Source: Gekko japonicus (taxonomy: Eukaryota). From it: a stretch of DNA of 64,000 nucleotides. Position numbers and translations under genes: made by a program. The stretch lies in contig NW_015172564.1 of the NCBI RefSeq assembly GCF_001447785.1, forward strand, positions 920,736 through 984,735, read 5' to 3'. The notes under the pieces are model-generated. The model saw only the letters and a program-made list of their open reading frames with translations. It had not been told where the DNA came from and made no database searches. Below, piece by piece: positions 5,093 through 62,274 of this stretch (position 1 is its first letter; the number at the start of each line of letters is the position of its first letter).

Positions 5093-5214
5093 GTTGGGAT
5101 TCTTAATTCAAGGTCGATGGTTGTATTACAAACACAAGAGCCACACTTAGTAAAATAAAAATATCTTTACTATAAAAACAAAATAAAACATGGGTATGGT
5201 ACTTTGGATAAAAG

Positions 5215-17150: not shown

Positions 17151-17523
17151 TAAGGTGCAGGAATCGTGCTTCCGCTGGGGCGTGCAGTAGGATTTTCAAG
17201 GACATGAGCTCCAAAGTGCAATCCTAAACAGAGTTGCCTAACCCTGTAGACTGCAATGAGCTCGGAAGGGCCTGATTTTGCTTTGAATTGACTCCTTGCA
17301 CCACCATGTCTAAGGCAGCGGAAGTACCTTCTTGCAGGCTCTGGAGAGGAGCAGATTAAAAATGGGTGCATCATGTCACTGCTGCAGGCTGCATACTTTC
17401 TGACTCTGCCTTGAGTTGTTGGCTTTGTCTTGGCAGATCGTCTCTGGCTCGGCCTCTTCTTGTCCGGAAGCTGAAAGCGGAGCAGACGCCACGTGTTCCT
17501 GGGCCCATGTGGATGGGGAGAGG

Positions 17524-27362: not shown

Positions 27363-27586
27363 ATGTCGCTCTCCCACCTGTACGGCGGCGACGCGGCGTC
27401 GGCTGCTGCAGCGGGCGCGGACGACGACGACGTGGAGATGGAGCGCTTCGAGATCACGGACTGGGACCTGGAGAACGAGTTCAACCCCAACCGGCAGCGC
27501 CACTGGCAGACCAAGGAGGAGGCCGTCTACGGCGTCTGGGCCGAGCGGGACTCCGACGACGAGCGGCCCAGCTTCGGCGGGAAACG
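27363..27586 (+). CDS. TFIP11: TFIP11 coding exon 1
   Basis: gccATG TCG...FGGKR; donor CG|gtgcgg. Confidence 0.94.
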
Positions 27587-36500: not shown

Positions 36501-39084
36501 CTGCAGGTGTGTGACTCCCTCCCTCCCTGAGCCCCTGAGGCTGCTGGGAGGAGATGCAGGGATGGGGGTTGGCTCAGCGCGTGTCCAGAAGGACCCTCGG
36601 CTCCCCCCATCAGGTGGCCGGCTTGGCTCACGTCTCACGTGCGCGGCTCCTCTGGCCTGCTGCGCTGCCCCGCAGAATTCTCCTCCCTGCCTTGTGAGGA
36701 GTCGGCCACTCGACCACTGTCGGCCACTCCTGGAGCTGGCAGGTGTCAGTCGGGCAGGTGGCGCCTCCCGAGCTCTGCTTCGGGCTCTCTTGCTCAGCAC
36801 AGGCATGGTGGGTTTGCACTTTCGGTCTCCTCCTGCCACCAAGCCTTTCCCTCTTCCAGGTTCTGTGCTCCTGGCTAAGTAACAACCCTAATTACGAAGA
36901 GATCACCAAGTGGTACCTGGGGTGGAAGTCTATGTTCTCGGACCAGGTGTTGGCCCACCCCTCCGTCAAGGAGAAATTCAACGAAGCCCTGGACGTCATG
37001 AACAGAGCCGTCTCTTCCAGTGTGGGTGCGTGAGTTGGTTATTAGCTCTTGCCCAAATGCCTCCACTGTAGGATTCTGTTTTTGTACATTGCAGTTGTCT
37101 TCATTTCTCATAATTATATGCTCACCGGGAAGTCATCTGCTTACGTAGCCACAAGGCTTATGCAGTTGATACAAGAAGAACAGTCCTAACTTCACAGATC
37201 TATTATGCAGTCCAAGAATCAAAACGATAAGATTATTCTTTAATACAGTCCAAATCCACTGAAGAGACAAAACACTCTTGATAACAACCTGATTTCCGGA
37301 GTGTAGTTCATATTTTCGTTTTTCTGCATCAGGTAATCCTCCTCCTCCTCAGAGCACAAGAGCCTGCCGCTGTCTCATGTCAACTAAAACCGCTTGACTT
37401 ATCAAATTTTTGTTCAAGGCACCAATCATGTAGTTTTAATATGGGACAATTAGGCTCCATACTTCTGATGCCGGTAAACCTTTTTCAGTGGATCTGGACT
37501 GTATTCAAGAATAATATTATCATTTTGATTCTTGGACTGCATAATAGATCTGTGAAGTTAGGACTGTTCTTCTTGTATTGATTGTATATGCCTTGTGGCT
37601 ATGTAAGCAGATAACGTCCTGGTGAGCGTGTAATTATGAGAAATGAAGACAGATGCAATGTATAAAAATTTAATAAGTCTCTATTGAATACAAACAACTT
37701 TCAGACTTTTACAGAGGATTTGTGTAACTCTTGAGGTGCCTGCTTCACAGTATTATTTCCTGTTCATCATCATCGTATTACTATGGGTTTCCTCACTTAC
37801 TGCTCCACTGTGGAATCTAGCTGGCTCTGAGTCCTGAGCTAAGGGGTGGCTGAATGTCGTTTGTAAGTGTCTAAAGCGGCAATGGAGGAAAGAGAGGCTT
37901 TCTTCTTCACCTGAATCTCATCCATCTGAGTTGTCGACAGATGCTTTTCCCCAGCAGCTAGTCCTGGTTATATTTGTGTGTGAGGTTCTCTTATTTTCTT
38001 GCTCAAAAGCTGAAGGGAAGAGAGAGGCTGCTCCCAAAGAGCCCTCCCAGAAGCCAGTCCAGTTGCAAGTAGGGGTGTGCACATAAGACGAATACAGATC
38101 ATAGTTCTGTATTTGGCTACCTGTATAGCTGAGAAAAAGCCGTAATTATCTGGCTTTTTTCGGGTTCATTTTAGTATACAAGAGGTTCTCATTAAACCTA
38201 ACAGCCAGCTCAGCCGCCAGTCAGCTGTTGGGTTTAAATGCCTCTCTTTCACTCCCCTATGTTGGGGAGGGAAAGAAAGGCATTGTAAACATGCCTGCTT
38301 CCCTTCCCAATCTTCTCCAGGTGCCCCGTAGCCTGACTGGCGGGGAGTGAAATTGACAGGGAAATCTGTAGGGTCTACCAGAGGGAAAGAAGTCATTTCC
38401 CTCGGGTGGTGTGAATCAGACCCGAATATATTCGGGAATACCGAATATAGCCCCAATCCGAATACCTTACTATTATTTTACTGTGAAAATCAGCATTTAC
38501 CGATATTTTTCGGGTCTGATTTACCCAAACCTGAAAAAAACCGGGTTTTTTTTTTTTTTTTTGCACATCCCTAGTTGCAAGAGGTGGCTTGCTCCCCACC
38601 CCACCTCACCCCTGAGCTTCAGGGTCCCGCTGTCTCCCGCCCACAGAGGAGAGGCTGAGCAGTGTCGCCGTCCCCCATCCACCATGGTATGCTGGCCTTT
38701 TCACTGCTTTCTCTCTTTCCTTGCCTAGGGGGCTACATGCAGCCTGGTGCGCGAGAGAACATTGCTTACCTGACCCACACGGAGCGCCGGAAGGACTTCC
38801 AGTACGAGGCCATGCAGGAGCGCCGGGAAGCCGAGAACATGGCCCAGCGGGGGATCGGCATGGCTGCCGGCTCTGTGCCCATGAACTTCAAGGACCTGAT
38901 CCAGACCAAGGCCGAGGAGCACAACATCGTCTTCATGCCAGTCATTGGGAAGCGGCACGAAGGGAAGCAGCTGTACACCTTTGGGCGCACCGTCATCTAC
39001 ATCGACCGGGGGGTGGTCTTTGTGCAGGGGGAGAAGACCTGGGTCCCCACCTCCCTCCAGAGCCTCATTGACATGACGAAGTGA
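27363..39084 (+). CDS. TFIP11: Tuftelin-interacting protein 11 (spliceosome disassembly factor, Ntr1/Spp382 orthologue), 12 coding exons, 838 aa
   Basis: MSLSHLY...[11 protein letters not shown]-terminus, G-patch ([27 protein letters not shown]), GCFC domain, C-terminus [14 protein letters not shown]. Exon lengths sum to 2517 nt (839 codons), all in phase. Confidence 0.97.
27696..28542 (-). repeat. Four tandem ~194-bp copies of a CR1 3' end in TFIP11 intron 1
   Basis: agaatcacag starts at 27696, 27891, 28085; agaatcatag at 28279. Confidence 0.9.
28790..29182 (+). mobile_element. CR1 LINE 3' fragment
   Basis: tgtggaactcgctgccacagga...ggtctgatccagcaggctgttcttatg. Confidence 0.72.
29304..29457 (+). 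CDS. TFIP11: TFIP11 coding exon 2
   Basis: ctag|[17 protein letters not shown]...KKLKT|gtgagt. Confidence 0.94.
29705..30125 (-). mobile_element. Decayed CR1 reverse-transcriptase fragment
   Basis: [24 protein letters not shown] (GVPQGSVLGP-like motif). Confidence 0.7.
30235..30391 (+). CDS. TFIP11: TFIP11 coding exon 3 (G-patch)
   Basis: acag|GGNFKPSQK...GKNAQ G|gtatgg. Confidence 0.95.
30872..30999 (+). CDS. TFIP11: TFIP11 coding exon 4
   Basis: ccag|[20 protein letters not shown]...EEEAEE|gtaggg. Confidence 0.95.
31361..31623 (+). mobile_element. tRNA-derived SINE (Squam3-like)
   Basis: Same family. Confidence 0.82.
32169..32321 (+). CDS. TFIP11: TFIP11 coding exon 5
   Basis: ctag|[12 protein letters not shown]...LAQVK|gtgagg. 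Confidence 0.95.
32872..33387 (+). CDS. TFIP11: TFIP11 coding exon 6
   Basis: gcag|[15 protein letters not shown]...WDPLK|gtgggt. Confidence 0.96.
33751..33857 (+). CDS. TFIP11: TFIP11 coding exon 7
   Basis: ccag|[16 protein letters not shown]...DAFHR|gtaggt. Confidence 0.94.
33973..34535. repeat. Long inverted repeat, AT-rich Penelope-like insertion in TFIP11 intron 7
   Basis: Arms 33973-34225 and 34267-34519, ~41-nt spacer. Confidence 0.9.
34754..34922 (+). CDS. TFIP11: TFIP11 coding exon 8
   Basis: tcag|[11 protein letters not shown]...FPKLQKE|gtagaa. Confidence 0.95.
35126..35369 (+). CDS. TFIP11: TFIP11 coding exon 9 (alternative in-frame acceptor at 35114)
   Basis: [22 protein letters not shown]...IVPKL G|gtaagg. 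Confidence 0.92.
35862..36135 (+). mobile_element. tRNA-derived SINE (Squam3-like)
   Basis: Same family. Confidence 0.82.
36364..36506 (+). CDS. TFIP11: TFIP11 coding exon 10
   Basis: gcag|[14 protein letters not shown]...FFPKWLQ|gtgtgt. Confidence 0.95.
36860..37025 (+). CDS. TFIP11: TFIP11 coding exon 11
   Basis: ccag|[19 protein letters not shown]...AVSSSV G|gtgcgt. Confidence 0.95.
37071..37802. repeat. Long inverted repeat, AT-rich insertion in TFIP11 intron 11
   Basis: Arms ~37079-37263 and 37484-37667; flanking direct repeat ctccactgt. Confidence 0.85.
38070..38573. mobile_element. Non-autonomous hAT-type DNA transposon
   Basis: TIR taggggtgtgca / tgcacatcccta; perfect 8-bp TSD gttgcaag; ccgaata subterminal repeats. 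Confidence 0.88.
38729..39084 (+). CDS. TFIP11: TFIP11 coding exon 12 (last)
   Basis: ctag|[14 protein letters not shown]...IDMTK*. Confidence 0.96.
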
Positions 39085-41892: not shown

Positions 41893-44800
41893 CTACCCGT
41901 GGGTGGCACAGGGAGAGAGTCCGCGTGAGAATCGTGGGGGGGGGGGGGGGTTGCAGCTACCAGCAAGAAGTCCGAATAACTAGGCTGTTCTTGCAGAGGT
42001 CAACATTTGGAAGCTCCCAAACACATTTTAACACCCCCCCCCTTTCCTGACCCATCTTAACCCCTTCTTGTTCCATCTGCGTCCTCAGAATTCATCAGAT
42101 ATTACTCAAGAAAATCCTTATTCCTGAGAAAGATTCATCCTGAGAGGCTGCAGCAGTTCTGGGACTGCCTCTGTGGCAGAGGGCTGCACAACTTGACCCC
42201 TGACTGGCCACTGAGCTGCACGAGTGCCCATCGTTTCCCCTCCACTAGACTGGCTGTGAGCAAATCGGCACAGAAAGGGGACGCCGGCTCACTGGCCGGG
42301 TGTCCTGCTTTGGTCTGCTACGCCCAGCAGCTGCTCAGAACACAGTCGAATGTATTGGGGTGCCCCCCCCCCCGCAAACTGGCAGCTGGAGACTCCACGG
42401 CTCCTCCTGAAGAGCAGTCACCTCCCACCTCCAATATGCATGCACCCTACCTTGGCGATGTAAGCGTAATCCGTTTGGAATATCCTGGTCGGGACCCTGG
42501 AAGCCAAAGGGGCAGGAGGCGTGAGGGGCTAGCCAGAGAGGCTCCTCCCATCCCATCAGCTCAAGCCCCTCTGCCCCCCCTCCCCACAACCAATGCTCCT
42601 TCTAAGCGGTGGAGTCTTGTGAGCAAACATTCTAGTACTTTGTGAGCTGCTGGCATTGAAGTTGTGAGCAAGCGATTTGGCTACTGCATAAATTAGTTTG
42701 CTCTAGAGCCCTCCTTCCTGAGCTGAGACAAAAACGCTTGAGCCAGAGGCTAAAAAACTGAGCCGGCTCACGCTAACTCAGCTGAGAGGGAACACTGACC
42801 ACAACCCCCAAGTTCTCTGGACACGAGGGAAGAATGAGCAGGGTTTGTGTGTGTATGTGTGGGGGAGTGTTACCTTTCTTCAATCCCCTTGAAACTGTTG
42901 CCCACGACGACCATTTGGGACAAGGCCTCCGCTGACCAGTTGCTCCACAGGAGGTTGTTGTAGAGGGCTTTCCCACAGTGGACCATGTAGAAGAGGGTGG
43001 GCTCCTCGGCGGGGCGCTTCCCCTCCTGCAAGCAAGGTCTCACCAGGCCAGGGGCTCCAGCCAGCCCCTCCCGGCCAGCCAGCCCCCTTGCACCCAGCAG
43101 CACCTCTCCCTTCGCGGGCCCTGGCCCCACTGAGGGCCGCTGGGTGTCCCGGGCACCTTCCCCGGGCAGAGATGGCACTCACCTCATTCCGCGAGAGGAC
43201 AGAGAAACCGAGGCCGCTGAGGACCTCCCTTTCCAACGTGGAGAAAGCAGGATCAAAGATGCAACACAGCTCCTCAGGAATCTGCCAGGGAGGGAGGCAG
43301 AGGCAGCTGTTGGGGGGGGCTCCGGGTTGGCTGGCTGAGCCCTACTAAGCGGGGGGGGGGGGGGCGGGGACGCCACCCATCCTTCAGCAGCAGCAGCAAG
43401 AAGGCCAGCTGGAAGCGGGCCTTAGAGCAAGAAGAGAAGTTGCCCAGGCCGTAACACACACACCGCAGGTGCGCTCGTCCGGGCGGAAGGGCGGGGGGGC
43501 ACAGCTGCAGCTCCTCCAAGGCCAAGAGGGCATCTTCCCCGGTGGGCACGGGCACCTCTCTCCCGCGGGCCAGGACTTCTCGCACGGACCTTAAGAGGAT
43601 TTCTAGAGCAGGGGGACAAGCAGGCCTGACAACACTTCATCCAAGCTGGGCAGCTGCCTGCCCCCTCCTTTTAGCCATGCAGAAAGCCTCAAGAATTTCT
43701 CAAGAGGGTGAAAATAGACTTTGAGAGGCGGCCAGGACTTACTCAGACTTGAATTCCAGAACTCGGAGTCCAGCAGGTCGGCCCTGCGAGAAAGAGAGGG
43801 AGGGAGGGGAGAAAAAGTAACTCTAGTGGGGGACTCTTTGTGGGGGGTGGGGGAAGAATCAAGAACCGAAAAGGTAAGAAAGAAACCTAGTAGAGGGCCA
43901 ATATATTCTCTTACTAGACATTATTTCCTTACATATTTTTAAGATACACGACACTAACATTTTTACCAACTGTGCATATGCACTGGACACATGACTTATT
44001 CCTAAGAGGCCTCATAGACATTCTGGTCATATTAGCTGTTGTAGATTTTCTGGGTTGTATGGCCATGGTCTTGGCACTGTACAATGCCACGACCACAACC
44101 ATACAACCCGGAAAATCTACAACAGCGAATGAACTCCAGCTGTGAATGCCTTCGACAACATTCTGGTCATGTGTCTATTAATCTCGCTCTGGAAGTAGGT
44201 AATATATGGGTTTTGAACCATATTATCAGTATAATTCATGACATTACATTTTAGGAATTCTTAAACTCACTATTCTCTTCTTTCCCCAACAGCATTCCTT
44301 CTTTGGTCCAGTACTGACATATTCTTTGCGGGTTCTTTGTAACATGAGCCTGTTTGTGTCTCAGATTGGCTGACATCTGAAGAAGGCCTGATTGGGCTGA
44401 AATGTGTTAGGTCACAATAATTGGTCCTCGTGTGCATGTCACTTGTACTTTTTAACGAGGCTTTCATTGGGCCCTTATATGATTTTTAACTCTGCACAAA
44501 ATAAATATATGTATTTTTACTTATGGTAAGTATATATGAGGTTTTAACTATTAGCGCTCTACTAGGTTTCTTTCTTCTCGGTTCTTGATTCAGTTTTATT
44601 GGGTTACGGGTTTTTTGCCCTCCCTGTGCCTCTGGATGGGGGATATGAACCAGGGCTGAGGTCCCCCCACATTACAGAGGCCAGTGTTCAACCAAGGCAT
44701 AAGAGAAGATCACCCTGAGCTCCATCCCCATGCCATGAGGCCATCGAGTGGGCTGGAGCCCCAGCACCTCTCGTTCTAGCTATAAGCGCTGTTCTAGCAA

Positions 44801-47820: not shown

Positions 47821-47870
47821 ATGGCCGCCGCCCAGGCCGAGCCTCCCGCCGCCGCCGCCGCCGCCGCCTG
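47821..47870 (+). CDS. HPS4: HPS4 coding exon 1
   Basis: [17 protein letters not shown] split as TG|gtaagg, giving the conserved WW with exon 2. Confidence 0.85.
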
Positions 47871-50800
47871 GTAAGGCCCCTGCCCAGCAGTGCCCCCTCT
47901 CAGCTGGGTTAGCGCGAGCCAGCTCACCGTCTCTTTAGCCTCCGGCTCACACGCGTTTGCCTCGGCTCAGGCAGGATGTGGCTCCCCAGAGCCAACTGAT
48001 GTATGCGGCAGCCCGATGGCTGGCTGGCTCGCTCGCAGCGTTCATGCCAGGAGGAGCTCGCCCAGCAGCAGAAGCTTTGCTCCCAATAAGACTCCGTGGC
48101 TGGCTGAGAGGCAGCCTTGCCCCTGCCGACGTTGCGGTCGCCGCCCCTTCGGGCCCGGCTGGGTGGCCCAGAGGGCTCCTCCTCACTCTCTCTCCCGGGT
48201 GCCTGCCGGTCCTCGCCCTCGACGGCTGCCCCTTGATGCCTCTGCGGAGGACGGAGGACGGGGATCTCTTTCACTCCCTGTGCAACGTAGCAGATGTGTG
48301 TGTGTGTGGGGGGGGTTGGTTGGTTGGTTGGTTGTCACGCGCAGGGCTCTTCTTCGAGAATGTGTCAGAAGCCTGCAGCAGCGTGAGCAGAAAGTAGCAC
48401 CTGGCCTGCGCATCTTGCATCCAGCCCTGCGCCCCCCCCCCCACTCCTGAGCTCTGGGTGGTCAGAAATTGGTAGCTGGGGATGTGCCTGTTCTGTGCCC
48501 CTAGTAGGTCACATGTGGAAACTCTTCTTGTCTCATCGCTTGTTCCCTGATGCTGTGCAGGTGGAATTGCTTTTTCCTTTTCGATGGCTCCAAGGTGAAG
48601 GAAGAAGGGGACCCCACGCAAGCCGGGATTTGCTATTTCAGCCCACGCCAGGTACGCCGGTGTCGCTTGGGCCCAGCAGCAGCCGCCGCTTTGGACGAGT
48701 GGGTGGGTAGGGTCAGCAGGCAACGGCTTGGCCTACTTAGGTCAGTGAGCAAAGGTGCCCAGGTTGAGACGGGCTGGATCCCCAGGCAACCCTGCCTTGT
48801 CACCACTGGAGGGCGTCTACCGCCCCTTTCCTGGGAGGCTGGGAGCTGCTTGGGGCAGAGGTTCTGTGTGGTCAGGAAGAACAGCTAAGCAGGGCCAACC
48901 CTGACAAGTGTTTGGATGGGAGACTTCCAAAGAATATCAGGGCCAGGAGGCAGAGGCAGGCTATCAAGCCACTTCTCTGAATGCCTTCCCTGCCTTAGTA
49001 GGAGTCGCCATGACTTCCAGGCACACGTGCACACGCACACACACACATGCAGAAATAACAAAAGAAAGAACACTACTCTGGCAGTGGCCCCCGGGGCACC
49101 CACCGGGAATGCCAGGGCTTCAGTCTCTCTGCTGTTTCTGACGTGGGCTCTCCATAGAATCAGAGGATGTTAGAGCTGGAAGGGACCTTGGAGGTCATCT
49201 AGTCCAACCCCCTGCACTCTGCAGGAGAACAGCCGAGAGAGAGCCCTACATACCTACAACATACCCGAAAGATGGTTGTCCAGCCTCTGCTTGAAAACGT
49301 CCAGCGAAGGAGCATCCGCCACCTCCCGAGGCAGACTGTTCCACTGCTCAACCACTCTCACAGTCAGGAAGTTTATCCTGATATTTAGCCAGTAACGACT
49401 CCCTTGTAATTCCCACCCATTAGATCTAGTCTTGCAATCCGGAGCAAGAGAGAATAGATCTGCTCCATCGTCTACATGACAGCCCTTCAGATACTTGAAG
49501 ACTGCAATCATGTTCCCCTCTAAGCCTTCTCTTTCCCAGGACTTTCCCAGCAGCTGTTGTTGTCCAAAACAATAGCTGCTGAGGGTGCCAGGCTGTGACT
49601 CGGGGGTGGGGGGTGGGGGCACAGTGCCCTTTCTGACTGTACTGTGGCCTGACACTAAATACAACGGGACCACGGAGACACGAAGTATAATAACAAAAAC
49701 AATCATGGAGAGAATGAATTGCTCAAGGTCAAATACCACTGAAAGTGTGACTTAAAGGCATTAAGTCTCAAACATAATAAATGAGAAAGTCATTCATAGA
49801 GATTAAACTATAAATCTTTTGGTATGATCCACATGTACAAACCGGGTTTGATTCCCCACTCCTCCTCCACTTGCACCTGGCTGGATGACCTTGGGCAAGC
49901 CATAGTTCTGATAAGAGCTGTCCTTGAAAAAGAGCCGTTTCTGTCAAGAGCTCTCTCAGCCCCACCCACCTCCCAGGGTGTCTGTTGTGGGGAGGGGAAG
50001 GGAAAGGAGTTTGTAAACCGCTCTGTGGTTCCCTTGGGTAGTGAAGGGCAGGGTATAAATTCAATCTCTTCTTCTCTCTTCTACTTATTGCTATTTAAAC
50101 AAAAGCTATGAAACAAATACACAAGTATAAAGAAGCCTTCCCAAAGCAAGACCAGTAAATGGACTGTATGCAGTCCTTGAAAACACTGTAATCTTCTTTG
50201 CTGTTTCAAACTTTCTTAGTTTCAAACCTTCAGGTCTGCAGGGAGGCTGAGAAACCAGGCTGACGTCTCCTGTCGGCCGAGAGAGTTTCGATTCTGCTTC
50301 TTCAGAGCCAATATATTCTTATGGAACCACACAGTTTACATGTTTTGCATGCCTTATCATACTCCCACAAGGACTCGTTATACTCCTTATGGCAAAAACC
50401 TTGAGCAATTCGTTCCCGCCATGGTGTATTCTGTACTGTTGCCTGAAGCGGTGGAAGCCGTCTTGCCATTCTCATTCCTGTGTCTTAGCTTTAGCGATTC
50501 CCCCCCCCCCCGGCCCACGCACTGACCCCTTCCATAGTTGGGGGGGGGGTTTGCAAAGATTCGGGGAGGGACGCCTCTCTCGCTGCTGGGTCCTGAGATG
50601 TGGCTTTCAGCCACGGCGGCGCCTGGGGTCCCGGCAGGCTCCTGTCTGTAGCGTCTCTTCCCTCCTTCCCTGGCAGACGCCTCTGGGGCAGCAGGAGCTG
50701 CTGTGCAGCCAGGTGGCAGGCGTGGTCCGCTGGATGGCCGAGATCTCGGGCTCTCCGCCGCAGCTCATTCGTCTGAGGAAGCTCAAGTTTGCCGTGCGTG

Positions 50801-53800
50801 TGGAGGGCAGCTACCTGTGGGTGAGTCCCTGTGGGGTGGGGGCTCCCGAGGGGGGGAAGGCTTGGGGAAGCGGCACGGGCTGGGGAGGAGGGGGCTCAGT
50901 CTCACGCGCTCGCGTGCCACAGGTGCTGGGCTGTGCTGCCGACCTGCCGGATACCAGCTGCCAGTCCTTCCTGGATCTCTTGATTGGGCTCTTCTGCTTT
51001 TACAACGGCTCCCTTCCTCAAGCTTACAAGGTGAGTGGGGGCAGGACTTCTGCCCGTGAGCTGGCCTGGACCACTCTCTTCTGAGAGTTTCCTTCCTCCC
51101 CCCCTCCTCCTGCACGTCCAGCCTTCCGCTGCTTCCATGTGGCTGGAGGCAGGCCCCATCCTGACTGACCGCTTGGACCTTGCTGCTTTGGAACCCCACT
51201 TTCCCTGCAGAGCAGTGTTCCCCCTGAACTGAGTTAGTGTGAGCTAGTGCACAGTTCTTTAGCCTCCAGCTCACACATTTTTGTCTCGGCTCGGGAAGGA
51301 TGGCTCCAGAGCAAACTGATTTATACAGCAGCCAACTCGTTTTCTCACAACTTTAAAGCCAGCAGCTCACAAAGTAGAATTTTTGCTCACAAGACTCCAC
51401 AGCTGAGAGGGAGCCTTGCTGCAGAGTTGTCTCTCTCGCCTGGTGCCCTGTGGGAGCTGGCGGCCTGGGCTCGGGAACAGCAGACCTTCTGGGTCTTCCT
51501 GCGGCTTGTGTCTGCCTCATTCTCCCAGCGCAGAGCAGGCACCTGGGCACTGCAGTGGGCTCTCTCGACCCTGCTGTAAATTGGATCGCCACTCCCCCCC
51601 CCCCTTTTTTGGTCTGAATGGTTATTTGCTTCTCGGCTCAAGCCAGGCTCTCTAGAGTGTTTTTGTGGGGTGGACTGCAGAGGTTCACGAGTGTGTATGC
51701 CCAAAGTTATCCAGGCCCTCTGTGGGGACAAGGGGTGGGTCTGTCTTCGGTCTCCGCCTGGCTCATGGCCTTGCCTTTGCTCACTGCTTAATTCTCTCAC
51801 GTGTCCCTGGAAGTGGCTGGCAGGAGGTGGTGCAGAGAGCCAGAAGCTCCCTGGGTGCTCAGGGACACTCGCTCCTTGGTGGTGGACGTCTGGAGATCCA
51901 GAGCCACTCTCTCCCGGCATGAAGATCAGCTCCCCCAGGGCTGAACTCGGGGTCCCTCTGGATTCCCGCGGAGTGTCCCCTCCCGAGTGTTGGACAGGAG
52001 CCTGCCGCCGAGGGCAAGGCAGCAAAAGGGGCTGCGGTTCCCACCGCCAGGAGAGGAAGCTCTCGCCCCAGGGCCTTCCCCTTTCCCTCCTCCTGGTTTC
52101 TTTTCACATAAAGGTGGTTCAGGGTAGAAAGTTGCTGCTGTCAGAAGTCTGGCGTTTTGCATGTGAATGTGCAGTTTGGACGAAGAGTGGTGTTCAGGGG
52201 GAGCGTAGATCAGCAGCGTTCTCCGGTGGTCCTTGGAGAGGCTGATGGGGTCTCCGTGTCCTCCTCAGGAGCGGCTGCGGGAAGAGCTGGACCGGGAGTG
52301 GGAGAGGTACGTGAGGCACGTGCAGCACAACACCAGCGACCTGCACCGGATCTTCAACTCCCTTTGGGCCATGGACAAAACCAAAGTAACGCCTGGCGGG
52401 ACGGGCTCCCCTCCCCTGGCTCTTCTCTGCCGTGGCGCTGCCCGTGCCCTGACTCCCCCCCCCCTCTTCCTGTCCAGGTTTCTGAAAGCGGCCCTGATCC
52501 TCCAGACGTGCCAGCGTGCCCTCCACGTGCTGGCTGGATGCATCAGCTACAAGGGGCTGTGAGTATTGGGGTGGAAGGCCTTGAAATGGGGGCTGTATCC
52601 TGTGGGAGGGACAGGCCTCATTCTCCTTACCCGGCCTGCCTACCTGCCTGCCTGCCTCTCCTCTGGGTTTGGGGGGCTGCCTTCTGTGGAGTCGGGTCCC
52701 GGCCCCTGCAGCTGGGTGTTGTCTGGCCAGGGGTCCCTTCTGCCCACCCACACTTGTGCTCTGGCCTCCAGCAGAGACCACTGAGGAGGAGCAAGACATA
52801 TGCCCCCTCCCGCCCAAGGAGGTCTTGTCCATTCAACCATCCTCTCTCCCCAGGGTTGTCAGCACACAGCTGCCACCCGGCCTCACGGCCAAGGTCCTGT
52901 TGCAAGAGGCAGAGGCCAACCCTGAGGTAGGTTCCAGCTTGGAAGCTGCTGCCGCCGCCTTCGTGTCTGAAGAGAGCGCGGGCAGAATCTGACCACGTCC
53001 CAGATGGGTCTCCTGGCCTTGTGGCTGGCGCAGGAGTCGTGGGGGACTGAGGAGCAAGAGGGCAGCTCCGTCCTTGCCTGACTTCTCTTCCTCCAGGGCT
53101 GCTTCTGCCGGGGGCTTTGGTCCACGAAAACACCCACTCCTTTAGAAGCCCGCTTCTTTTTTCAATGCAGAAATGTGTGAATGTCTGACTAGCACAGTTC
53201 TGAGTACTTCCTTTCTTTAGAGAACTTCCTGCTTTTCTTCCTCTTCCCTCCTGGTCCGGGGGCAGCTCTTAGCATCTGTTGGTAGAAATTAGGGAAGTGG
53301 ATGCACCTTTGGGGGTTTTGGGGGGGGGGCAGTCAAAGCTTTAGAGCCAAAGCGCAGCTGAGGGAAAGGCGTGCTGGAAAGAGCAGAGCGCTGGCCACTT
53401 AGGGAGCAGGCCCGTGTCATTCATTAAAGCACTCGAGCACCACGTTACGTGGTTTGGCAGCAGAGCCCCAAAGAGGCCAGGGGGGGGGGCAACTCTCCAG
53501 ACTGCTCAGCAGGTCCCGGTGACTGGGGGCTCTTTTCTGTTTCAGGGTCTGCCAGCGAACGGAGGAGGCCAGCTGCAGGATCAGGGTAAGTGGAGGAGGA
53601 GTTCTGTGCTGAGTGCGGGGGGGGCATCACCGGGCAAGGCAGATTCCTCCAGCCGTGCGCCAGCAGCCATGCCTCCTGCTGGACGTTGTGCCTGTGGCCG
53701 TCTACACCAGGGGCCCTACCAGCAATGTTCCATGAGAACCAGTTTGGTGTTGTGGTTAAGTGCGCAGACTCTAATCTGGGAGAACTGGGTTTGATTCCCC

Positions 53801-56800
53801 ACTCCTCCACTTGCACCTGCTGGATGACCTTGGGCAAGCCACAGTTCTGTCAGAGCTCTCTCAACCCCACCCACCTCACGGGGTGACTGTTGTGGGGAGG
53901 GGAAGGGAAAGGAGTTTGTCAGCCGCTCTGAGACTCTGAGTGAAGGGCGGGGTATACATCCAGTCTCCTCTTCTTCAGTTGGGGGGGGTCACGGTCTCCC
54001 CCCTCCAGTTGATGGAGTCAGGTGCCCAGTCTTGCTTCAGGTCTGTGCAGTGACTGGAGGAAGTTTGGACAGCGCTCTTATGATCTCTCTGGCTTTTCTG
54101 ATCCTTCCCTGGGCCCTTTGCTTTGCAGCCAGCTGCACAGGGATCTGAGGGTTTACTCGTGAGTTGCACACCCTCTGCTACGCCCTGGGTAGGTCCACTG
54201 GGCTTGTCAGCTGAGACCACATTCAGAGGCGTTTGATGCAGAGAGCTCTGCTTGTGGGTGAGAATTCGTGTTAACACAAGAAAAGTTTTTCCATCTGTTT
54301 CCAAGTTTCCCGCCCCTCGTGGTGACTGACCGCCTGGGGTGTTTGGCTGCAGAACATCCCCCAGCAATGAGGAAGCTCTGCTGTTCTGCACAGATCAGCT
54401 CATAAGAATGTAAGAGAAGCCAATGTTGGATCAGGCCAATGGCCCATCCAGTCCAACACTCTGTCACACAGTGGCCAGAAATACCAGGTGCCCTCAGGAG
54501 GTCCAGCAGTGGGGCTCCTTTAGGTAAAGGTAAAGGTTCCCTTGCTCGAAAGCCAGTCGAATCCGACTTTAGGGTTGCGGTGCTCATCTCCGTTTCAAAG
54601 CCGAAGAGCCAGCGCTGTCCAAAGACATTTCCGTGGTCATGTGGCCGGCATGACTAAATGCCGAGGTGCACGGAATGCTGTCCCCTTCCCACCAAAGTGG
54701 TACCCATTTAGCTACTTGCAATTTCTTGCTTTCGAACGGCTAGGTTGGGAGGAGCTGGGACCAGAGATGGGAGCTCACTCCGTCATGCGGCACACTCGGG
54801 TCTTGAACTGCTGAACTACCGACCTTCCACAGCCTGCGGTTATTAACCACTTGAGCCACCGCAGCTCCTCTAGGGCTCCTTTAGGAAAGTACAAGAAGTG
54901 GTGCAAATAACTGCCAGGGTCGTGTCCGGCTATGGCCTCCTGGAGGCTTTACGCTGATATTATCTGGCAGCAGGCAAACCCCCCCCCCCTCTGTGTTCTT
55001 CCATTCCCCAGAGCGCATTCAGCTGCCCCTCGAAGGTTCCTGTCTACCTCAGGGGGTCCACATCACCCCTGTTTACCTCTTAGAAAATGAAGCCGCCGCA
55101 TTGCGGGACTTCCCCCTGGAGTGGATGGCCCGGTAAGGTGGGAACTGGGGACGGGCAAAGGGGCTTCTCCCCGGCAGAGGTTCCCTGCTCTGGGCGTCTG
55201 CTGCTCCCTTCAGGCGTGAGATCCGTGCTCTGTGCCACCTCTCACCCCCCAGGTTCAGCTCAGAGATTATGAACTTGATTTGGGGAGGGGGGTGTTGGTC
55301 CCAAGGCTCCCTCTGAGCTGTGAGTAAAACATTCTACTTGGTGAGCTCCTGGCATTGAGGTTGTGAGCGAGCGATTGGGCACCCTCATAAATCAGTTTGC
55401 TCTGGAGCCATCCCTTCCTGAGCCGAGACAAAAATGTGTGAGCCGGAGGCCAAAAAACTGAGCTGGCTCACACTCACTCAGCTGAGAGGGAACACGGGTT
55501 GGCACCCCCTGGAGCGAGCTGTCGTGGTGTGGTGGACGGCGTGTGTGGCTGGGATATCCTGGGGGCCCCCGGGTTCAAAGCCCCACTGGTCAGAATGGAG
55601 TGGAGTGAAGGAGAATGACCTTTTTGAGTCCCAGCCGTGGAGAAGAGCAGGACCCAGACAAAGGCCCTGCCCCCCTCCCCCGGGCATCAGTCGGGTCCCC
55701 CCGAGGCCAGCTGCTTTCGTCCAGGGCTGGACCTGAGCTCCGCCCCCCTGGGCTGCAGAAGCTTTCCCCCTGGATGTCCTGGCTGGGTGGGGGCCCTCCA
55801 CTCGAGCGGTCTCTCCGAGGACCCTGTGAAGCCAGCAGAGGCCCTTGGTGTCCCCCGTGTCTCCCCCTCGGTGCTGACCCTTCTGGTGGGCAGCAGCTCT
55901 CCCGAGTCGCGGGCCAAGAAAGGCCTTCCTTCCCCAGCACTGGGGGGGGGGGGGCTCCCCAGTCCTTTTCCTGGAGGTGCTGTGTCGGGGATGGAACTCG
56001 GCACCTTCTGCATACCAGGCTGGTGCTCTGCAGCCGAACCTCGGCCCCGCCCCAAGAGGGCCAGCCCCCAGGGAAGCCACAGGACGGGGTGCCCGTGCCC
56101 CGTGCTCTGCAGACCAAGCGCCCGTTCTCACTGCAGGAGTCCGGGGGGACCGGGCGCAGCGTCAGCAGCCATCAGCAACGGGCCCGGCGGGGCAGCTTTG
56201 GTGAGGATGGCCTTGTACGTCCACCGCGTCCGAGGCCTGGTGCTGGCTCTCCTGGCGGAAGAGCCGTTTGCGGAGAGCGAGGGCTCCATCGAGGACGTGG
56301 TAAGAGACGGCGGCCGTTTTTGCTTAGCACCCCTCCTCCCCCCACGGTTAGAGCCCCATACCCCCCCACACCAGAACTCCCTGCAGTGCTGTCAGAGTCT
56401 TGCCTTCTGCCCCCAGGAGCCCCCCCCTTGAGAAGGGTCCTCCTGAGACCATCCAGCAGATTCCTCAATGGGGGGGGTTATGCACAAAGAATCTGGGGGC
56501 GACATGGGTGGTGGCAACTGAGCTGCCCGTGGGTGATGCTCCCCCAGTCAAGGGCGCACTGCTGCCCTTTGCTCTGCCGTGACCTTCCCTGCCGCAGGGG
56601 CCCTGCAAGTGCCGGGCGGGTCCCATGGCCAGACACCATGGCAAGCAGGCAGGCAAGGCAGGCGGTCAGACTCCCTGGTCAAGTCACTCTCAAGCACACA
56701 CGGTCTTTGGCAGTGAAAAGCTTTATTACGTTAAACAAGTTCCAGGCATGATCAATACTGTGTTCGTTCTAAAGCATTTTGGCGGGTTCAGGCACAGATA

Positions 56801-59800
56801 TAGACTGTTCAAACTGTAGCCCCTCCTAAGGCCCACACACACACACACATCACGCCCTGCAGCCAGGCTCCTGCGTCTCCTGCCCCCCTTCCCATGGGAA
56901 TACACGATCCCACGATCTGCTACACAAGCTGGCACGGAGAGCTTCAAGGACCGCTCCCTGTGAACCAGAGAGAGGCACATCTTGAGGAAGAGGCTCTGCC
57001 GTCTAAGACAGAGGCACTCCCACGCACGCCGCACTCACTCCCCCCAGCGTCAGTGGCAAACCGTGTGAAGCAAAGTGAAGCATGGCTTGACACAGGTAGA
57101 GGTGGGGGGGGGGCCCCACCGGACTGAGTCCAAGGAGCGCCACCTCAGGAATGGACCCATGCTGCTGGCAGCCGGACTGTGTGGGCTGGAGCGGCGCCCC
57201 AAGCGGCACGCGGAATGCCAGAGCTCCTCCAGTCCTGCCCTGTGTGGGTGTGTTGACCCAGAGGGGGCCTTGCCTTGGGCTTGATGCGTCTCTCCCTCTC
57301 AGTATCACAGCAGCCTGGCCTCGCTGAACGGCTTGGAGGTCCACCTCAAGGAAACCCTTCCGAAGGACGGCCCCTCCTCGGTCAAGAGCTCCTATGGCTT
57401 TGCGCACTACGACTCGATCCAGAATGTTCTCACCGGTGAGGGCTGGATGGGGCACGGCGAGCTGGGAGGGGGCTGGCCCCTGTGACCCTGCAGGAGGGGC
57501 TCGTTCCTGGAAGAGGACTGCTCCCACTGCCCTTGGGGGGGGGGCGTGACTTGCTGTCATGAAGCCCGTCTGGTGTCATGGTTAAGTGTGCGCGGACTCT
57601 GATCTGGGAGAACCGGGTTTGATTCCCCACTCCTCCACTTGCACCTGCTGGATGACCTTGGGCAAGCCACAGTTCTGACAAGAGCTGTCCTTGAAAAAGA
57701 GCAGTTCCTGTCAGAGCTCACTCAGCCCCACCTACCTCACAGGGTGTCTGTTGTGGGGAGGGGAAGGGAAAGGCGTTTGTAAGCTGCTCTGAGACTCCGA
57801 GTGAAGGGCAAGGGGAATAAATCCAATCTCCTCCTCCTCCTCTTCATCTTCTTCGTCATCATCATCTCAGGCCCAATCAAGCTAGAACTGGGTCGGGGGG
57901 GATGCGGTGTGGGCTGCAGGCTGCCAGAGATTCAAGAAGAGAAAGGGGGGGGCTGGGTGATTCAAGAAGAGAAAGGGAGGGTTCCGGGAACAGCCAAGCC
58001 AGGAGAACATGCCGCTTTAATTCCTTTGGGGCAGGTCTGGAGGTGGAGAGGGAGCCCTCCTGGCTTTTGGGATTTTTTTTTTGGGGGGGGGGCATGTAAA
58101 GGAGAGCGGCACAAGCTGGTTGGGGTCATACAGCCCTCGGTTCGAATGCTGCCACTGCTACTTTGGCCGGCCGGCCTCTTTCAGCAAAAGAGCGAAAATA
58201 CTGGCTGGCCTTACCAGGATAGCATCAGGACTTTGGCATAAAAACCAACAGAAAATGCAGAGTAGAACCTCAGCCTTATTTTAGGTCCTGTGAAAGCCGC
58301 CTTCTGCACTGAGTGAGGGGTGCGCTTTCTGTCTTCTTCCCTTACCATCGTGCACAGGAATTAGCTTCGGAGCTGCTTAATTTTGCTCTGTGAAGACCTC
58401 GTGGTGGTGGTGGTGGTGGTGAGGCATGAATGGAGAAAATGAATGGATCCACACAAACCGCAAGCATTCCAAGGAAAAGAGAAGGCCTCGCCTGTCTGTG
58501 TGAACTTGACCCTATTCTCCAGTTGGGAACGGGAGCAGGGGCCTGGGCGGCCTCCCCCGCCCCTGGCAGTGGGGTGGGAGAGCCACCCAGCGGCCTCCCT
58601 CTCCCCTTCCCAGCTGCCTTTCTGCTTGACCCTTGCATTGCTCACCGACCCCAATCCTCTCCCTTTCCAGCGAACTTCCTGCCAGCCGCCGGCCCCCAGG
58701 ACCAACACTTCCTGCGAGCCGTGAGCTTGCTCCACACGGACTTTCACCAGCTGCCAACGGTGTCAGAAATCACTGTCCGGTAAGGGGGTCAAATGGGAGC
58801 GCTTTGGAGGCATTGGCGTGGCTGGGGGCTGTGTGCGGATCCTGGCTCTCAGCAAGATGCAGCTCTTGGGTCTTGAGGTTCACAGGCAGCACCAGCGCTT
58901 GCCGGCTCCAAGCCTTCAGGGACCATCAGTGTGTCTTGGCGGCTTCTTTGAGCAGAAGCGAAGCATGCCGGTTGCGTTCCAGCAGGCAGAGCGAGGCTTC
59001 GTCTGTCTTCCTTTTTTCAGGTTTCTGATTCCCACCCACCCCCTGCCTAAGGAAAGTAACGACACACATCAAGTCAGCCACTCAATCTTCCAGAAGGAGT
59101 ATGTCCCGTACCAGTAAAGCATCAAGCTTTAGTCAGCCCAGCTGGTCCATCAGTTGGCTAAACCTTTGAATGGCTGTTGGGCCTCCCCTCTCCCTTCCTG
59201 GGTCACATGTCCTTGTCATGCTTCAGGAAGTCATGGTTTTTTGAGGAAAACAGCATGCTGCGCTCCCTGAAAACCCTGGCTTGGGTCTGCTGGCCACATT
59301 AGGGCAGAAATGGGTGCTTCAGCCGCGGCTCTTCCCTGTCTAGGCTGTGCTGGCTGCGTGCTCTTCCAGGGTCGGCAAAGATCTGGGCTTCAAGTTGTGG
59401 GGGGTAGGAAAAACCCAGCTGATTGGGGAGGGGCAATCCGGTCCTGCCGTAATGTTTATGACTCTGAGTGTGGCATGGTGTGTGGGGGGGGCAGCAATGC
59501 TGGTTTCTGCTCACGTGGGCATGAGGGAGGGGTTTGGTGACTCACCGGGCCCGGACTGGCCCTTTCTTTCTCAGCTGCAACCATCAAGCCTTTATTATGA
59601 TAAAGGCACATGTTCCACCTGAGGGTCTGAGCCTGGCCCCCTCTGCTGCTTGGCTGTATAAAGATTCCATGCTGCAGTCACATCTTCCTCGCTTCTCTCT
59701 GTTTGCCGAGGGGACCGGCCCACCTGCTTGGACTCCAGGGGTAACTGCTACCCTCCGCCCTTTCTCTCGCACAGGAGGTTTAATGTGGCTCACAGAGACT

Positions 59801-62274
59801 GCCTTAAGAACGAAAGGGAGACTGTTCAGAATCTAAAAAGCACACACACCCTGGGCAAACATAACGGACTGAGCAAGGATCAGAGTGAAAGTGCTAAAAA
59901 TGCAGTCTTTGGTACTGAATCTTATTGCTGATGATGAAAACTAAGGACATGGGCTGTTTAATTCATGAAGCTGCCAGCACTCAGGAATCCCCCAGTACCT
60001 TGTTCAGCATTTTGGGTTTTCCTGCTCTAGTTTCAGCACCGTGTTGTCATGGGCAGTGTTCCCTCTAAGCTGCGGAGTCGTGTGAGCAAAAACTCTACTT
60101 TGTGAGCTACTGGCATTAAAGTTGTAAGCGAACGATTTGGCTGCTGCATAAATTAGTGTGCTCTGGAGCCATCCTTCCTGAGCTAAGACAACAATCTGTG
60201 AGCTGGAGGCTAAAAACCTGTGAGTTAGCTCACACTAACTCAGCTTAGAGGGAACACTACTCATGGCTGCCGTGGGGGAATCCGGCTGTAAGAATGGTTT
60301 GCAGTAAAATGGAGACTGTCATCTCTATGTTCCAGGGGTTTATAAGCTCTTTGCAGACCCTCTTTCTTTCCCTGTCCCGGACGGAAGGGCTGCCCTTGCC
60401 TTCTCCTCCTGAGCTCTATAGCTTTAGGTCTGAGTACGGAGGACTGTGCTGATGCATCCCCCTCACCGGCAGCCTTTAAGCAGCGGCTGGACAAACCCTT
60501 GTCAGGGATGCTGCAGGCTGGTCGTGCATTGGGCAGGGGGTGGGACTAGATGGCCTGTCGGGCCCCTTCCGACTCTGTGACTCTATGATTCTGTGCCTTT
60601 TCTCCTCCAGCTAGGATCATCTGTATTTCTATGGCACTGACTCCGCTTCAAATTTATTTATTTATTTATTCATTTTATTAGATTTATATACTGCCCTCCC
60701 CAAAATGGGCTCAGGGCGATGTACAACAATTAAATAATACAATTAAAACAGTATTAAAATAACAATTTACACATAAGATATCATAAAATACCGTGTAACT
60801 ATAGAGGTAGTCCAATGACCGGTCAGAGTCAGGCCACTGGTGGACAATTTGGCCAGAAAAAGCTGGGCCAAAAAAACCAGGACCAGAGAAGCTGGGGGGG
60901 GGACGTCCGCTGCCTCAACCAAATGCCCGGGGGAAGAGCTCCATCTCGCAGGCCTTGCGGAACTGCAATAGGTCCTGCAGGGCCCTGGTCTCACACGGGA
61001 GCTCATTCCACCAGGTGGGGGGCAGGGCTGAAAAAGCCCTGGCCGTGGTCGAGGCAAGCAGGACGTCCCTGGGGCCGGGGACCACTAGCAGATGTTGATT
61101 TGTGGACCTCAGTGCCCTCTGGGGCTGATATGGGGAGAGGCGGTCTCTTAGGTACGCTGGCCCCCTGGCTTCTTGCTTCTTTCTCTTCCTCTCTGGCAGA
61201 AACAAAAGCACTTTGTAAACTCTCAGCCTGTACAGATTGCAGACCCAGGTACCATTCCTTTGGGTTGTGACCTCGGGGGTCATTCCCAGGGTGTAGAAGG
61301 CCTCTCACCAGACCATAGAGTCTTGCCTCCTTCACAGATGTGACAGAAAGAATGAAGACGTTTTTCCTGCCTCTGGTAGAGGGTAGTGCAGAATGAGACA
61401 CGTGCAACAGTTGGCTTGTTGGCATACACAGCACTTAACAGTTGATTGGGTGGTCACCAAAGGCTTGGAGAACATTTAGCCCCTGAAAGGTTTTGCTTTC
61501 ATGTAAGGTCCTCCTAAAAGCGTCCCTTCTTCCTCAAGACCGTGGGTAGTGAAGGTGATCTTAGGAGGATCCTGCAGGTGGGGGGACAGGGGGGACTGCT
61601 CTGAGATGGGCTGGTCGGCCGAGATACCTTTATTCAGGACACGAATGTGAATTCTGTCGTGAGTGTTTCTAATGGTGCGGGTCCTGTGTGCCTGGAAACG
61701 CTAAGCAAGTCTCTGACAAAATGATTCTTCCTCCCCCAGCCTAGCCAGGGAGTTCTGAGAGGGCAGAAAAGCTGTGTGTGGGGGGGGGGGCTGTGGATTT
61801 TTTAGGGGGGAGGCAGGGCAGCCCTGTAGACTTTACCTTTACACTAGCCAACAAGAGGGAATTTGCTGGCACATGTTCAACCAGCCCCCCATGTTTGGCG
61901 CAGGTTGCTTTGCACCTTCTCTGTGCTTATTTTTTTTGGGGGGGATTCCATCTTCACAGCAGTCTAGTGGGGGGGGGGGTGTACAGCAGCAGCTTGTGAC
62001 CACAGCTGGGTCTCTGCTGCATCCTGGCCGAGCTCATCAATGGCGCTTCTCTTTCTCTCCCCCCCCCCCCCCCCCCGCCTGCCTCGTGGGCCGGTCCCTC
62101 AGGAACGCCTCCACCGCCGTGTACGCCTGCCGGAACGCTGTCCAAGAGACGTACTTCCAACAGCTGGGCTCCCCCCTCCGCAATTCAGGGGCACCCAATC
62201 CCCGGGACAGTGCCTTCACCCTGCCCTCCAGGGCCAAGCAGAAGCTGCTGAAGCACGGCGTGAACCTGCTCTGA
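47821..62274 (+). CDS. HPS4: BLOC-3 subunit HPS4 (Rab32/38 GEF component), 13 coding exons; exon 6 out of phase in this assembly
   Basis: [69 protein letters not shown]-terminus [13 protein letters not shown]. Confidence 0.94.
47888..48119 (+). mobile_element. Same MITE family, decayed CpG-rich copy in HPS4 intron 1
   Basis: cagtgccccctctcagctg...tttagcctccggctcacac. Confidence 0.7.
48561..48651 (+). CDS. HPS4: HPS4 coding exon 2
   Basis: gcag|[17 protein letters not shown]...SPRQ|gtacgc. Confidence 0.94.
49156..49540 (-). mobile_element. CR1 LINE 3' fragment
   Basis: [32 protein letters not shown]. Confidence 0.88.
49841..50080 (+). mobile_element. tRNA-derived SINE (Squam3-like), 5' truncated
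   Basis: Same family. Confidence 0.8.
50677..50820 (+). CDS. HPS4: HPS4 coding exon 3
   Basis: gcag|[10 protein letters not shown]...GSYLW|gtgagt. Confidence 0.94.
50923..51030 (+). CDS. HPS4: HPS4 coding exon 4
   Basis: acag|[10 protein letters not shown]...QAYK|gtgagt. Confidence 0.93.
51213..51418 (+). mobile_element. Same MITE family
   Basis: Perfect TSD ctgcagag. Confidence 0.88.
52269..52385 (+). CDS. HPS4: HPS4 coding exon 5
   Basis: tcag|[11 protein letters not shown]...MDKTK|gtaacg. Confidence 0.92.
52478..52558 (+). CDS. HPS4: HPS4 coding exon 6 (5' end apparently missing 14 nt)
   Basis: ccag|G TTT CTG AAA: [13 protein letters not shown]...YKGL|gtgagt; homologous frame starts 1 nt into the exon. 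Confidence 0.8.
52854..52926 (+). CDS. HPS4: HPS4 coding exon 7
   Basis: ccag|[16 protein letters not shown]...NPE|gtaggt. Confidence 0.92.
53546..53585 (+). CDS. HPS4: HPS4 coding exon 8
   Basis: tttcag|[14 protein letters not shown]|gtaagt; phases fit. Confidence 0.75.
53740..53975 (+). mobile_element. tRNA-derived SINE (Squam3-like)
   Basis: Same family. Confidence 0.82.
54525..54872 (-). mobile_element. Sauria SINE
   Basis: (ACCTTT)n tail on the minus strand, gtggtcatgtggccggcatgac body, 13-bp TSD gggctcctttagg (54512, 54873). Confidence 0.88.
55012..55132 (+). CDS. HPS4: HPS4 coding exon 9
   Basis: ccag|...[30 protein letters not shown]|gtaagg. Confidence 0.85.
55302..55497 (-). mobile_element. 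Same MITE family
   Basis: Reverse-complement similarity. Confidence 0.8.
56137..56299 (+). CDS. HPS4: HPS4 coding exon 10 (5' boundary inferred)
   Basis: ttctcactgcag|G AGT is in phase with exon 9; [22 protein letters not shown]...IEDV|gtaaga. Confidence 0.75.
57303..57435 (+). CDS. HPS4: HPS4 coding exon 11
   Basis: tcag|[20 protein letters not shown]...NVLT G|gtgagg. Confidence 0.94.
57568..57855 (+). mobile_element. tRNA-derived SINE (Squam3-like)
   Basis: Same family. Confidence 0.82.
58671..58779 (+). CDS. HPS4: HPS4 coding exon 12
   Basis: ccag|[21 protein letters not shown]...ITVR|gtaagg. Confidence 0.93.
60054..60259 (-). mobile_element. Same MITE family
   Basis: TIRs cagtgttccctctaagctg / cagcttagagggaacacta. 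Confidence 0.85.
60650..61168 (-). mobile_element. L2-like LINE 3' fragment
   Basis: [20 protein letters not shown]...WWNELP; (ttta)n tail. Confidence 0.83.
62103..62274 (+). CDS. HPS4: HPS4 coding exon 13 (last)
   Basis: tcag|[21 protein letters not shown]...KHGVNLL*. Confidence 0.95.

What the first reader, a model, noticed from the sequence alone, without database searches (positions are those of the whole stretch)
52386..52925. HPS4 frameshift at exon 6, with a stop-free intron that would rescue it
Seen: exon 5 ends in phase 0 (AAA|gtaacg), but exon 6 begins cag|G TTT CTG AAA GCG, so the homologous frame is offset by 1. The residues expected before LKAA (VEPLLL in human, from memory) are mostly missing, consistent with a 14-nt deletion. 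Normal splicing gives a premature TGA at 52923-52925. Retaining the 92-nt intron keeps one open frame (ORF 52233-52562), replacing ~5 residues by 31. Established: HPS4 with HPS1 forms BLOC-3, the Rab32/38 GEF; loss causes hypopigmentation (HPS type 4, mouse light ear). Inference: either a loss-of-function or hypomorphic pigmentation allele, compensatory intron exonisation, or an assembly error.
Basis: partly seen in the sequence, partly recalled or inferred. Interest (0 to 1): 0.7.

Follow-up and report, generated by a model that had tools for sequence, protein, structure and literature searches.

The report
Gecko HPS4 frameshift, likely assembly error
This gecko genome sequence lacks 14 bases at the start of one exon of the pigment-organelle gene HPS4, but every other sequenced sample of the species that covers the spot has the intact, normally spliced gene, so the break is likely an assembly error beside a run of Cs (less likely one animal's private mutation) and the "rescuing" intron is likely coincidence.

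Summary
The 14-nt shortfall at the start of HPS4 coding exon 6 is in the window as described (stop 52923-52925; retaining the 92-nt intron restores the frame). It is not the species' state. All 7 informative public runs of the same species label (4 studies; 2 DNA contig sets, 2 transcript contigs, 3 raw RNA runs) carry the missing bases and splice intron 5 out. In both DNA runs the intron is 91 nt, which would not rescue. A stop-free, frame-restoring intron this GC-rich arises by chance 16-28% of the time. The neighbouring gene SRRD has a second frame-breaking gap, also beside a long G/C run. These are the two closest of 61 exon borders to such runs (post hoc; SRRD not read-tested). A public RefSeq model patches the same gap with a non-canonical intron. 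Verdict: likely local assembly artefact (~0.8); private null allele ~0.17; compensatory exonisation ~0.02. The assembled animal's own reads were not available. Three look-ups of this scan's notes found no earlier HPS4 finding.

The parts
47821..62274 (+). HPS4 gene, 13 coding exons (47821-47870, 48561-48651, 50677-50820, 50923-51030, 52269-52385, 52478-52558, 52854-52926, 53546-53585, 55012-55132, 56137-56299, 57303-57435, 58671-58779, 62103-62274), all introns GT-AG; 471 aa with six X at the break
   Evidence: 80-91% identical to five gecko orthologues; exon 4/5, 6/7, 7/8 and 8/9 joins seen in RNA reads
52269..52385 (+). coding exon 5, ends in phase 0
   Evidence: covered by RNA reads
52386..52477 (+). 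intron 5, 92 nt and stop-free in frame in the window; 91 nt in both conspecific DNA runs; spliced out in RNA
52455..52464 (+). C10 run; in X1 and X2 it is one base shorter and interrupted by T (52463)
   Evidence: tables 3 and 4
52480..52481 (+). the lesion: TT where conspecific DNA and RNA have 16 letters (net -14 nt; loss of VDPLLL, human V168-L173, just before K175 of helix LD2-alpha1)
   Evidence: table 5c; tables 4, 5c
52478..52558 (+). coding exon 6 as assembled (81 nt, 14 short)
52923..52925 (+). premature TGA (codon 221) if the assembled sequence is spliced canonically
43377..43381 (-). second lesion of the same anatomy: SRRD coding exon 3 ends 4 nt short of the orthologous phase-0 donor, 13 nt from a G14 run (43351-43364); not tested with reads

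Best explanation
This is an ordinary, single-copy gecko HPS4 gene whose 14-base gap at the start of coding exon 6 is likely a local assembly error, not a feature of the species. Shown: other samples of the species have the 14 bases in DNA and splice exon 5 to exon 6 in frame, giving the invariant VDPLLL; intron 5 is removed; the other coding exons are intact. Inferred mechanism: read coverage or quality collapses at a GC-rich stretch with a long C run, the short-read contig breaks, and the gap is closed with too few and partly wrong letters (16 replaced by 2, the run lengthened by one and made pure). The same likely happened 9 kb away in SRRD. The frame 'rescue' by intron retention is likely chance: GC-rich short introns are usually stop-free, and the right length depends on the C-run base that conspecific DNA lacks.
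For: Raw RNA: the joint 52387>52482 with 16 letters between is seen in X21 (3 reads), X23 (9) and X24 (1, plus 8 loose ends with the same letters). No spliced joint with the window's allele reached the listing threshold of 3 reads. Depth in the intron-5 bin is 0, 0.69 and 0, against about 5.6, 18 and 10 in exon 5. DNA: X1 (contig 52349-53582, depth 46) and X2 (51917-53620, depth 63) both have 14 letters put in at 52479-52481 and one C left out at 52455. X3 and X4 contigs show the same intact joint. X21 shares the window's exon-7 letter at 52887 (0 of 16 reads differ), yet all 3 of its listed junction reads are intact. 115 of 120 listed homologues have exactly VDPLLL (109) or VEPLLL (6); 5 did not match the pattern. 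Second lesion in SRRD: 88 of 91 measurable orthologues (120 listed) share one spacing, and the window is 4 nt short. The two lesions are the two closest of 61 exon borders to a G/C run of 10 or more (13 and 14 nt; P about 0.002, or 0.03 taking HPS4 as given; post hoc). All 3 G/C runs of 10 in 51900-53620 have an indel at or beside them in X1 and X2. The assembly has 191,500 contigs and this window has 6 N gaps. False indels in GC-rich parts of short-read assemblies, and false introns annotated over them, are documented (PMC9516821, passages). RefSeq model XP_015276764.1 patches this gap with 14 intronic bases and a GC..GT 'intron'.
Against: No run from the assembled animal was available (best share of words 0.50), so the direct test is missing. 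RNA cannot exclude heterozygous carriers because the predicted transcript is an NMD target, and contigs drop rare variants. DNA evidence comes from one study only, with haplotypes about 2% away from the window (33 other letters in 1700 for X2). A 16-to-2 replacement without microhomology also fits an end-joining scar. PMC9516821 notes that Illumina-based assemblies have fewer frameshift errors. Nearby coding sequence is otherwise clean: TFIP11 has 12 exons and 838 aa intact. A TPST2 exon border 15 nt from a C11 run is intact. The SRRD lesion rests on orthology alone.
Confidence: 0.8

Rival explanations
1. A real, private (probably heterozygous) null allele of HPS4 in the assembled animal: an end-joining scar replaced 16 nt by 2. 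Normal splicing would give a stop at codon 221 and likely nonsense-mediated decay, or a 220-aa stump without LD2 and LD3. It would be recessive, with hypopigmentation only in homozygotes.
For: Deletion-with-insertion scars are typical of real mutations (established knowledge). The species is polymorphic in this region. The flanking exons match conspecific RNA almost letter for letter. A Xenopus hps4 allele truncating at 214 aa is viable and causes periodic albinism (PMC7839477, abstract and section 2.3).
Against: The allele is absent from 7 of 7 informative runs, and no second allele lies elsewhere in the assembly. It would need a second independent frameshift in adjacent SRRD, or a coincidence with an artefact of the same anatomy.
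Confidence: 0.17
2. Compensatory retention or exonisation of intron 5: a real deletion rescued by reading through the 92-nt intron, giving a 497-aa protein with 32 residues in place of VDPLLL.
For: The frame is open in the window.
Against: It needs the deletion to be real. The chance level is 0.16-0.28. The intron is 91 nt in both DNA runs. Donor and acceptor AG are unchanged and used efficiently in RNA. The top hit for the read-through ORF among proteins of 206-2000 aa was only 61% identical. The replaced residues are invariant in 115 homologues and lie just before K175 and R178, the residues predicted (and tested by mutation) to bind RAB9A on helix LD2-alpha1 (PMC11947305, passages; numbering).
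Confidence: 0.02
3. Species-level loss or relaxation of HPS4 (pigmentation change in this gecko lineage).
For: None beyond the single lesion.
Against: Conspecific DNA and RNA are intact in 4 studies. All other exons are in frame with canonical splice sites and 80-91% identical to gecko orthologues.
Confidence: 0.01

Closest known systems
False frameshift and false compensating intron in short-read vertebrate assemblies (e.g. zebra finch PCDH17; PMC9516821, passages read)
   Same: An indel in GC-rich coding sequence of an older draft, absent from other data, with the annotation bent to keep the frame (here XP_015276764.1).
   Different: Their frameshift class was defined as indels under 10 bp and was confirmed with reads. 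This one is 14 nt net with two foreign letters, and the source reads were not seen.
HPS4, BLOC-3 subunit (human, PDB 8ZWC chain B; PMC11947305)
   Same: Tri-longin protein, collinear over its whole length (P0003 vs 8zwc_B, E 1e-146); same neighbours SRRD, TFIP11, TPST2.
   Different: Gecko HPS4 naturally lacks most of the long disordered LD2 loop (471 aa here; the human construct deleted residues 289-518).
Xenopus laevis periodic albino hps4.L allele (PMC7839477, abstract and section 2.3)
   Same: What the rival 'real allele' would be: a frameshift truncating at about 214-220 aa, recessive hypopigmentation.
   Different: That allele is a 1,920-bp two-exon deletion confirmed in DNA and mRNA and by rescue; nothing here links the gap to an animal or a phenotype.

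Membership tests
HPS4 (BLOC-3 subunit, tri-longin domain family) | Intu_longin_1 (PF19031) at the N-terminus and Intu_longin_3 (PF19033) at the C-terminus | tested here: met
   Exon 3 hits PF19031 at E 0.0012, below the curated cut-off as a single exon; the last exon alone gave no hit. Orthologues 80-91% identical over the whole model carry both domains.
HPS4 (BLOC-3 subunit, tri-longin domain family) | Orthologous position beside SRRD, TFIP11 and TPST2, single copy | tested here: met
   the human gene order is recalled
HPS4 (BLOC-3 subunit, tri-longin domain family) | Binds HPS1 and acts as Rab32/38 GEF | not testable with these tools
   established for human (PMC11947305); not assayed for gecko
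HPS4 loss-of-function allele (HPS type 4, light ear, periodic albino) | Lesion present in the animal's own DNA | not testable with these tools
   source reads not among the 24 runs listed
HPS4 loss-of-function allele (HPS type 4, light ear, periodic albino) | Lesion segregates or is fixed in the species | tested here: not met
   0 of 7 informative runs show it; X22 was uninformative. A rare allele is not excluded.
Retained intron / exitron restoring a frame | Intron-spanning transcripts are a substantial share of mRNA | tested here: not met
   intron-5 bin depth 0, 0.69 and 0 in three raw RNA runs; no retaining contig listed in X3 or X4; non-carriers only
Retained intron / exitron restoring a frame | Frame-preserving length and stop-free state beyond chance or conserved | tested here: not met
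   chance 0.16-0.28; 91 nt in X1 and X2
False gene loss by assembly error (frameshift class) | Reads of the same individual contradict the assembly | not testable with these tools
   only other samples could be laid
False gene loss by assembly error (frameshift class) | Other individuals, transcripts and orthologues are intact; GC-rich or homopolymer context; recurrence nearby | tested here: met
   (one intact counter-example at 15 nt)

The most novel reading that the evidence does not exclude
The reference animal really carried a natural HPS4 null allele. My five literature searches turned up no squamate HPS4 allele. If it segregates in the wild, homozygotes would be a reptile model of Hermansky-Pudlak type 4 in all three pigment-cell types. 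The bolder sub-case, leak-through by retention of the 92-nt intron or by the in-frame cryptic AG 28 nt into exon 6, is about 0.02.
Probability: 0.17. Interest if true: 0.35.

Novelty: not a real feature. Interest (0 to 1): 0.1.

Why it matters
Mostly as a correction. The public RefSeq models of HPS4 (XP_015276764.1) and of the neighbouring SRRD for Gekko japonicus carry odd peptides exactly where this sequence has gaps. Anyone scanning gecko pigmentation genes for loss or positive selection would get a false hit at the RAB9A-binding helix of HPS4. It also gives a practical flag for this genome: small frame breaks within about 15 nt of a long G or C run should be checked with reads before being believed. 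If the allele were real it would be a new but unsurprising HPS4 null.

Tried and rejected
No listed holder was on record as RNA; this is no evidence either way, and raw RNA runs were laid instead. X22 (raw DNA, about 4% read, 18 reads laid) did not cover the lesion at the listing threshold. A second HPS4 copy or alternate haplotig was sought: one match for the DNA query and none for the intact junction motif. An apparent frameshift in a 'large exon' at 55600-56130 was rejected: that stretch is intron in geckos, and exon 10 starts at 56137. Other rescue routes: intronic GTs at 52432 and 52444 are out of frame; 52472 is in frame but leaves a 6-nt intron. In-frame AGs 28, 37 and 76 nt into exon 6 lack pyrimidine tracts and would delete 14-30 codons of LD2. 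Templated insertion: an 11-mer at 59018 matches the junction, but about 0.03 matches are expected per register and several registers were tried, so it was rejected. TTTC/GAAA forms a 4-bp inverted repeat, which is too short to count. G-quadruplex-type deletion was considered (recalled) and rejected because the run itself is kept. My first exon borders for HPS4 exons 10-13 and SRRD exon 5 were off by 1-2 nt and were corrected. dN/dS was not computed (no orthologous DNA). No folding job was sent. Papers: searches listed no gecko or squamate HPS4 allele (only top listings seen: 2 of 3, 15 of 3,901, 12 of 6,268; subscription journals are not searched); supplements were not read.

Full report
Observation. 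The window holds a complete HPS4 gene on the + strand, 13 coding exons from 47821 to 62274 with GT-AG introns. Exon 5 ends in phase 0 at 52385, intron 5 is 92 nt with a single AG, and exon 6 (52478-52558) starts 14 nt short. Canonical splicing gives a stop at 52923-52925 (codon 221), 567 nt before the last junction. Reading through intron 5 gives 497 aa. With six X at the break the model is 471 aa and 80-91% identical to five gecko orthologues. The gene is single-copy in the genome, which has 191,500 contigs; the window has six N gaps.

What should be there. Among the 120 listed homologues (of 244 found), 115 have exactly six residues between DxTK and LKAA (109 VDPLLL, 6 VEPLLL); five did not match the pattern and were not examined further. 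In human HPS4 these are V168-L173 (PDB 8zwc_B numbering minus 2; the offset was checked against H154 and R185 in PMC11947305 section 11). They lie just before K175 and R178 of helix LD2-alpha1, the predicted RAB9A contact that the authors tested by mutation (passages). A 26-residue net insertion there would likely be harmful (inference).

Reads. One run search listed 24 runs of one species label; I laid 8 of them. Raw RNA runs X21, X23 and X24 join exon 5 to exon 6 with 16 letters where the window has TT (3, 9 and 1 reads, plus 8 and 3 loose ends). This restores VDPLLL in frame. No spliced joint with the window's allele reached the 3-read listing threshold, and depth over the 3' part of intron 5 was 0, 0.69 and 0, against about 5.6, 18 and 10 in exon 5. 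X22 (raw DNA) was uninformative. Contigs of DNA runs X1 and X2 span the site with 14 letters put in, and transcript-like contigs of X3 and X4 show the same intact joint. That is 7 of 7 informative runs from 4 studies; the DNA evidence is from one study. In X1 and X2 the C run is one base shorter and interrupted, so intron 5 is 91 nt and would not rescue a 14-nt loss. Limits: none of these runs is the assembled animal. X1 and X2 are about 2% divergent from the window. Nonsense-mediated decay would hide a heterozygous allele in RNA, and contigs drop rare variants. X21 does share the window's exon-7 letter at 52887 (0 of 16 reads differ) and is intact in its 3 junction reads.

The 'rescue' is chance. 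The intron is 73% GC; 0.85 of 20,000 shuffles and 390 of 793 local GC-rich 96-mers are stop-free. With a one-in-three chance of the right length, 16-28% of such lesions would look rescued. The donor and the acceptor AG are the ones used in conspecific RNA, so nothing predicts retention. No protein with the read-through peptide was listed among 206-2000-aa candidates (best identity 61%; a weak test).

Artefact or private allele. The neighbouring head-to-head gene SRRD has a second break. 88 of 91 measurable orthologues (120 listed, 29 did not match the pattern) share one spacing across the exon 3/4 junction, and Gekko kuhli reads LLLLLKELQ|IPEE. The window's exon stops after KDG in phase 2, 4 nt short; four N restore a 301-aa frame. 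This break lies 13 nt from a G14 run and the HPS4 break 14 nt from a C10 run. They are the two closest of 61 exon borders examined (all internal borders of HPS4, TFIP11 and SRRD, and 3 of TPST2). The third closest, a TPST2 border at 15 nt, is intact (P about 0.002 for both among the closest three, 0.03 taking HPS4 as given; post hoc). All three G/C runs of 10 in the laid stretch have an indel at or beside them in X1 and X2, though three other indels lie away from runs. RefSeq models for Gekko japonicus show the same breaks, patched. HPS4 XP_015276764.1 equals my model at 465 of 471 positions and fills the gap with 10+4 intronic bases around a GC..GT 'intron'; the SRRD model uses a cryptic acceptor. 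Against an artefact: TFIP11 is intact over 12 exons, the SRRD break was not read-tested, the scar has no microhomology and could be an end-joining product, and PMC9516821 (passages) reports fewer frameshift errors in Illumina-based assemblies, even while documenting false indels in GC-rich regions and false introns annotated over them.

Mechanism. Shown: the species makes an intact, normally spliced HPS4. Inferred: the assembly lost 14 nt where coverage or quality failed beside a long C run in GC-rich DNA, and the gap was closed with too few and partly wrong letters (0.8). Rival: a private end-joining null allele, likely decayed, recessive, comparable to the 214-aa Xenopus periodic albino allele (PMC7839477, abstract and section 2.3) (0.17). 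Compensatory exonisation 0.02; species-level loss 0.01.

Literature and earlier notes. Five paper searches (only top listings seen) showed no gecko or squamate HPS4 allele; supplements were not read. Three look-ups in this scan's notes found no HPS4 finding. Several unreviewed notes suspect assembly errors elsewhere in this genome; they were not used as support.

Verdict. Interest 0.1.

Noticed in passing
window 43377-43381 (-), SRRD coding exon 3 end: Exon ends 4 nt short of the orthologous phase-0 donor, 13 nt from a G14 run; the RefSeq model (P0244) reads 38 residues where 88 of 91 orthologues have 31. Likely a second assembly lesion; no reads laid.
   Followed up: partly
window 52386-52481: RefSeq HPS4 model XP_015276764.1 (P0242) carries a non-homologous hexapeptide built from intron ends around a GC..GT false intron (52396-52473).
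   Followed up: yes
window 55133-56136: Gecko HPS4 lacks most of the long disordered LD2 loop of mammals and birds (471 aa here; 403-476 aa in listed geckos, about 460-475 in other squamates, vs about 630-770 in most listed birds), resembling the engineered delta-loop human construct used for cryo-EM.
   Followed up: partly
window 27363-39084 (+): TFIP11, 12 coding exons, 838 aa, intact.
   Followed up: yes
window 17404-20700 (+): TPST2 exons; the large exon and the next one join in frame although the acceptor lies 15 nt from a C11 run; later exons were not fully mapped.
   Followed up: partly
whole window: 38 G/C runs of 10 or more against 3 A/T runs; the three runs that could be compared are shorter, interrupted or flanked by an indel in conspecific DNA contigs, so run lengths in this assembly may be inflated.
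   Followed up: partly
window 51900-53620: Two haplotype groups under one species label: X1 and X2 differ from the window by about 2% plus several indels, whereas an X3 intron contig differs at 1 of 314 letters and X21 at almost none. This may reflect population structure or a cryptic lineage.
   Followed up: no
X1 loose ends at 52208, 52349, 53579: All three breaks fall at GATC with GATC-ending foreign sequence, as expected of proximity-ligation junctions; they explain the depth steps in X1 and are not structural variants.
   Followed up: partly
window about 4100-8500: Tandemly repeated units (translating to recurring GPSSPAS...EEP motifs in tblastn noise) interrupted by N gaps; not examined.
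   Followed up: no
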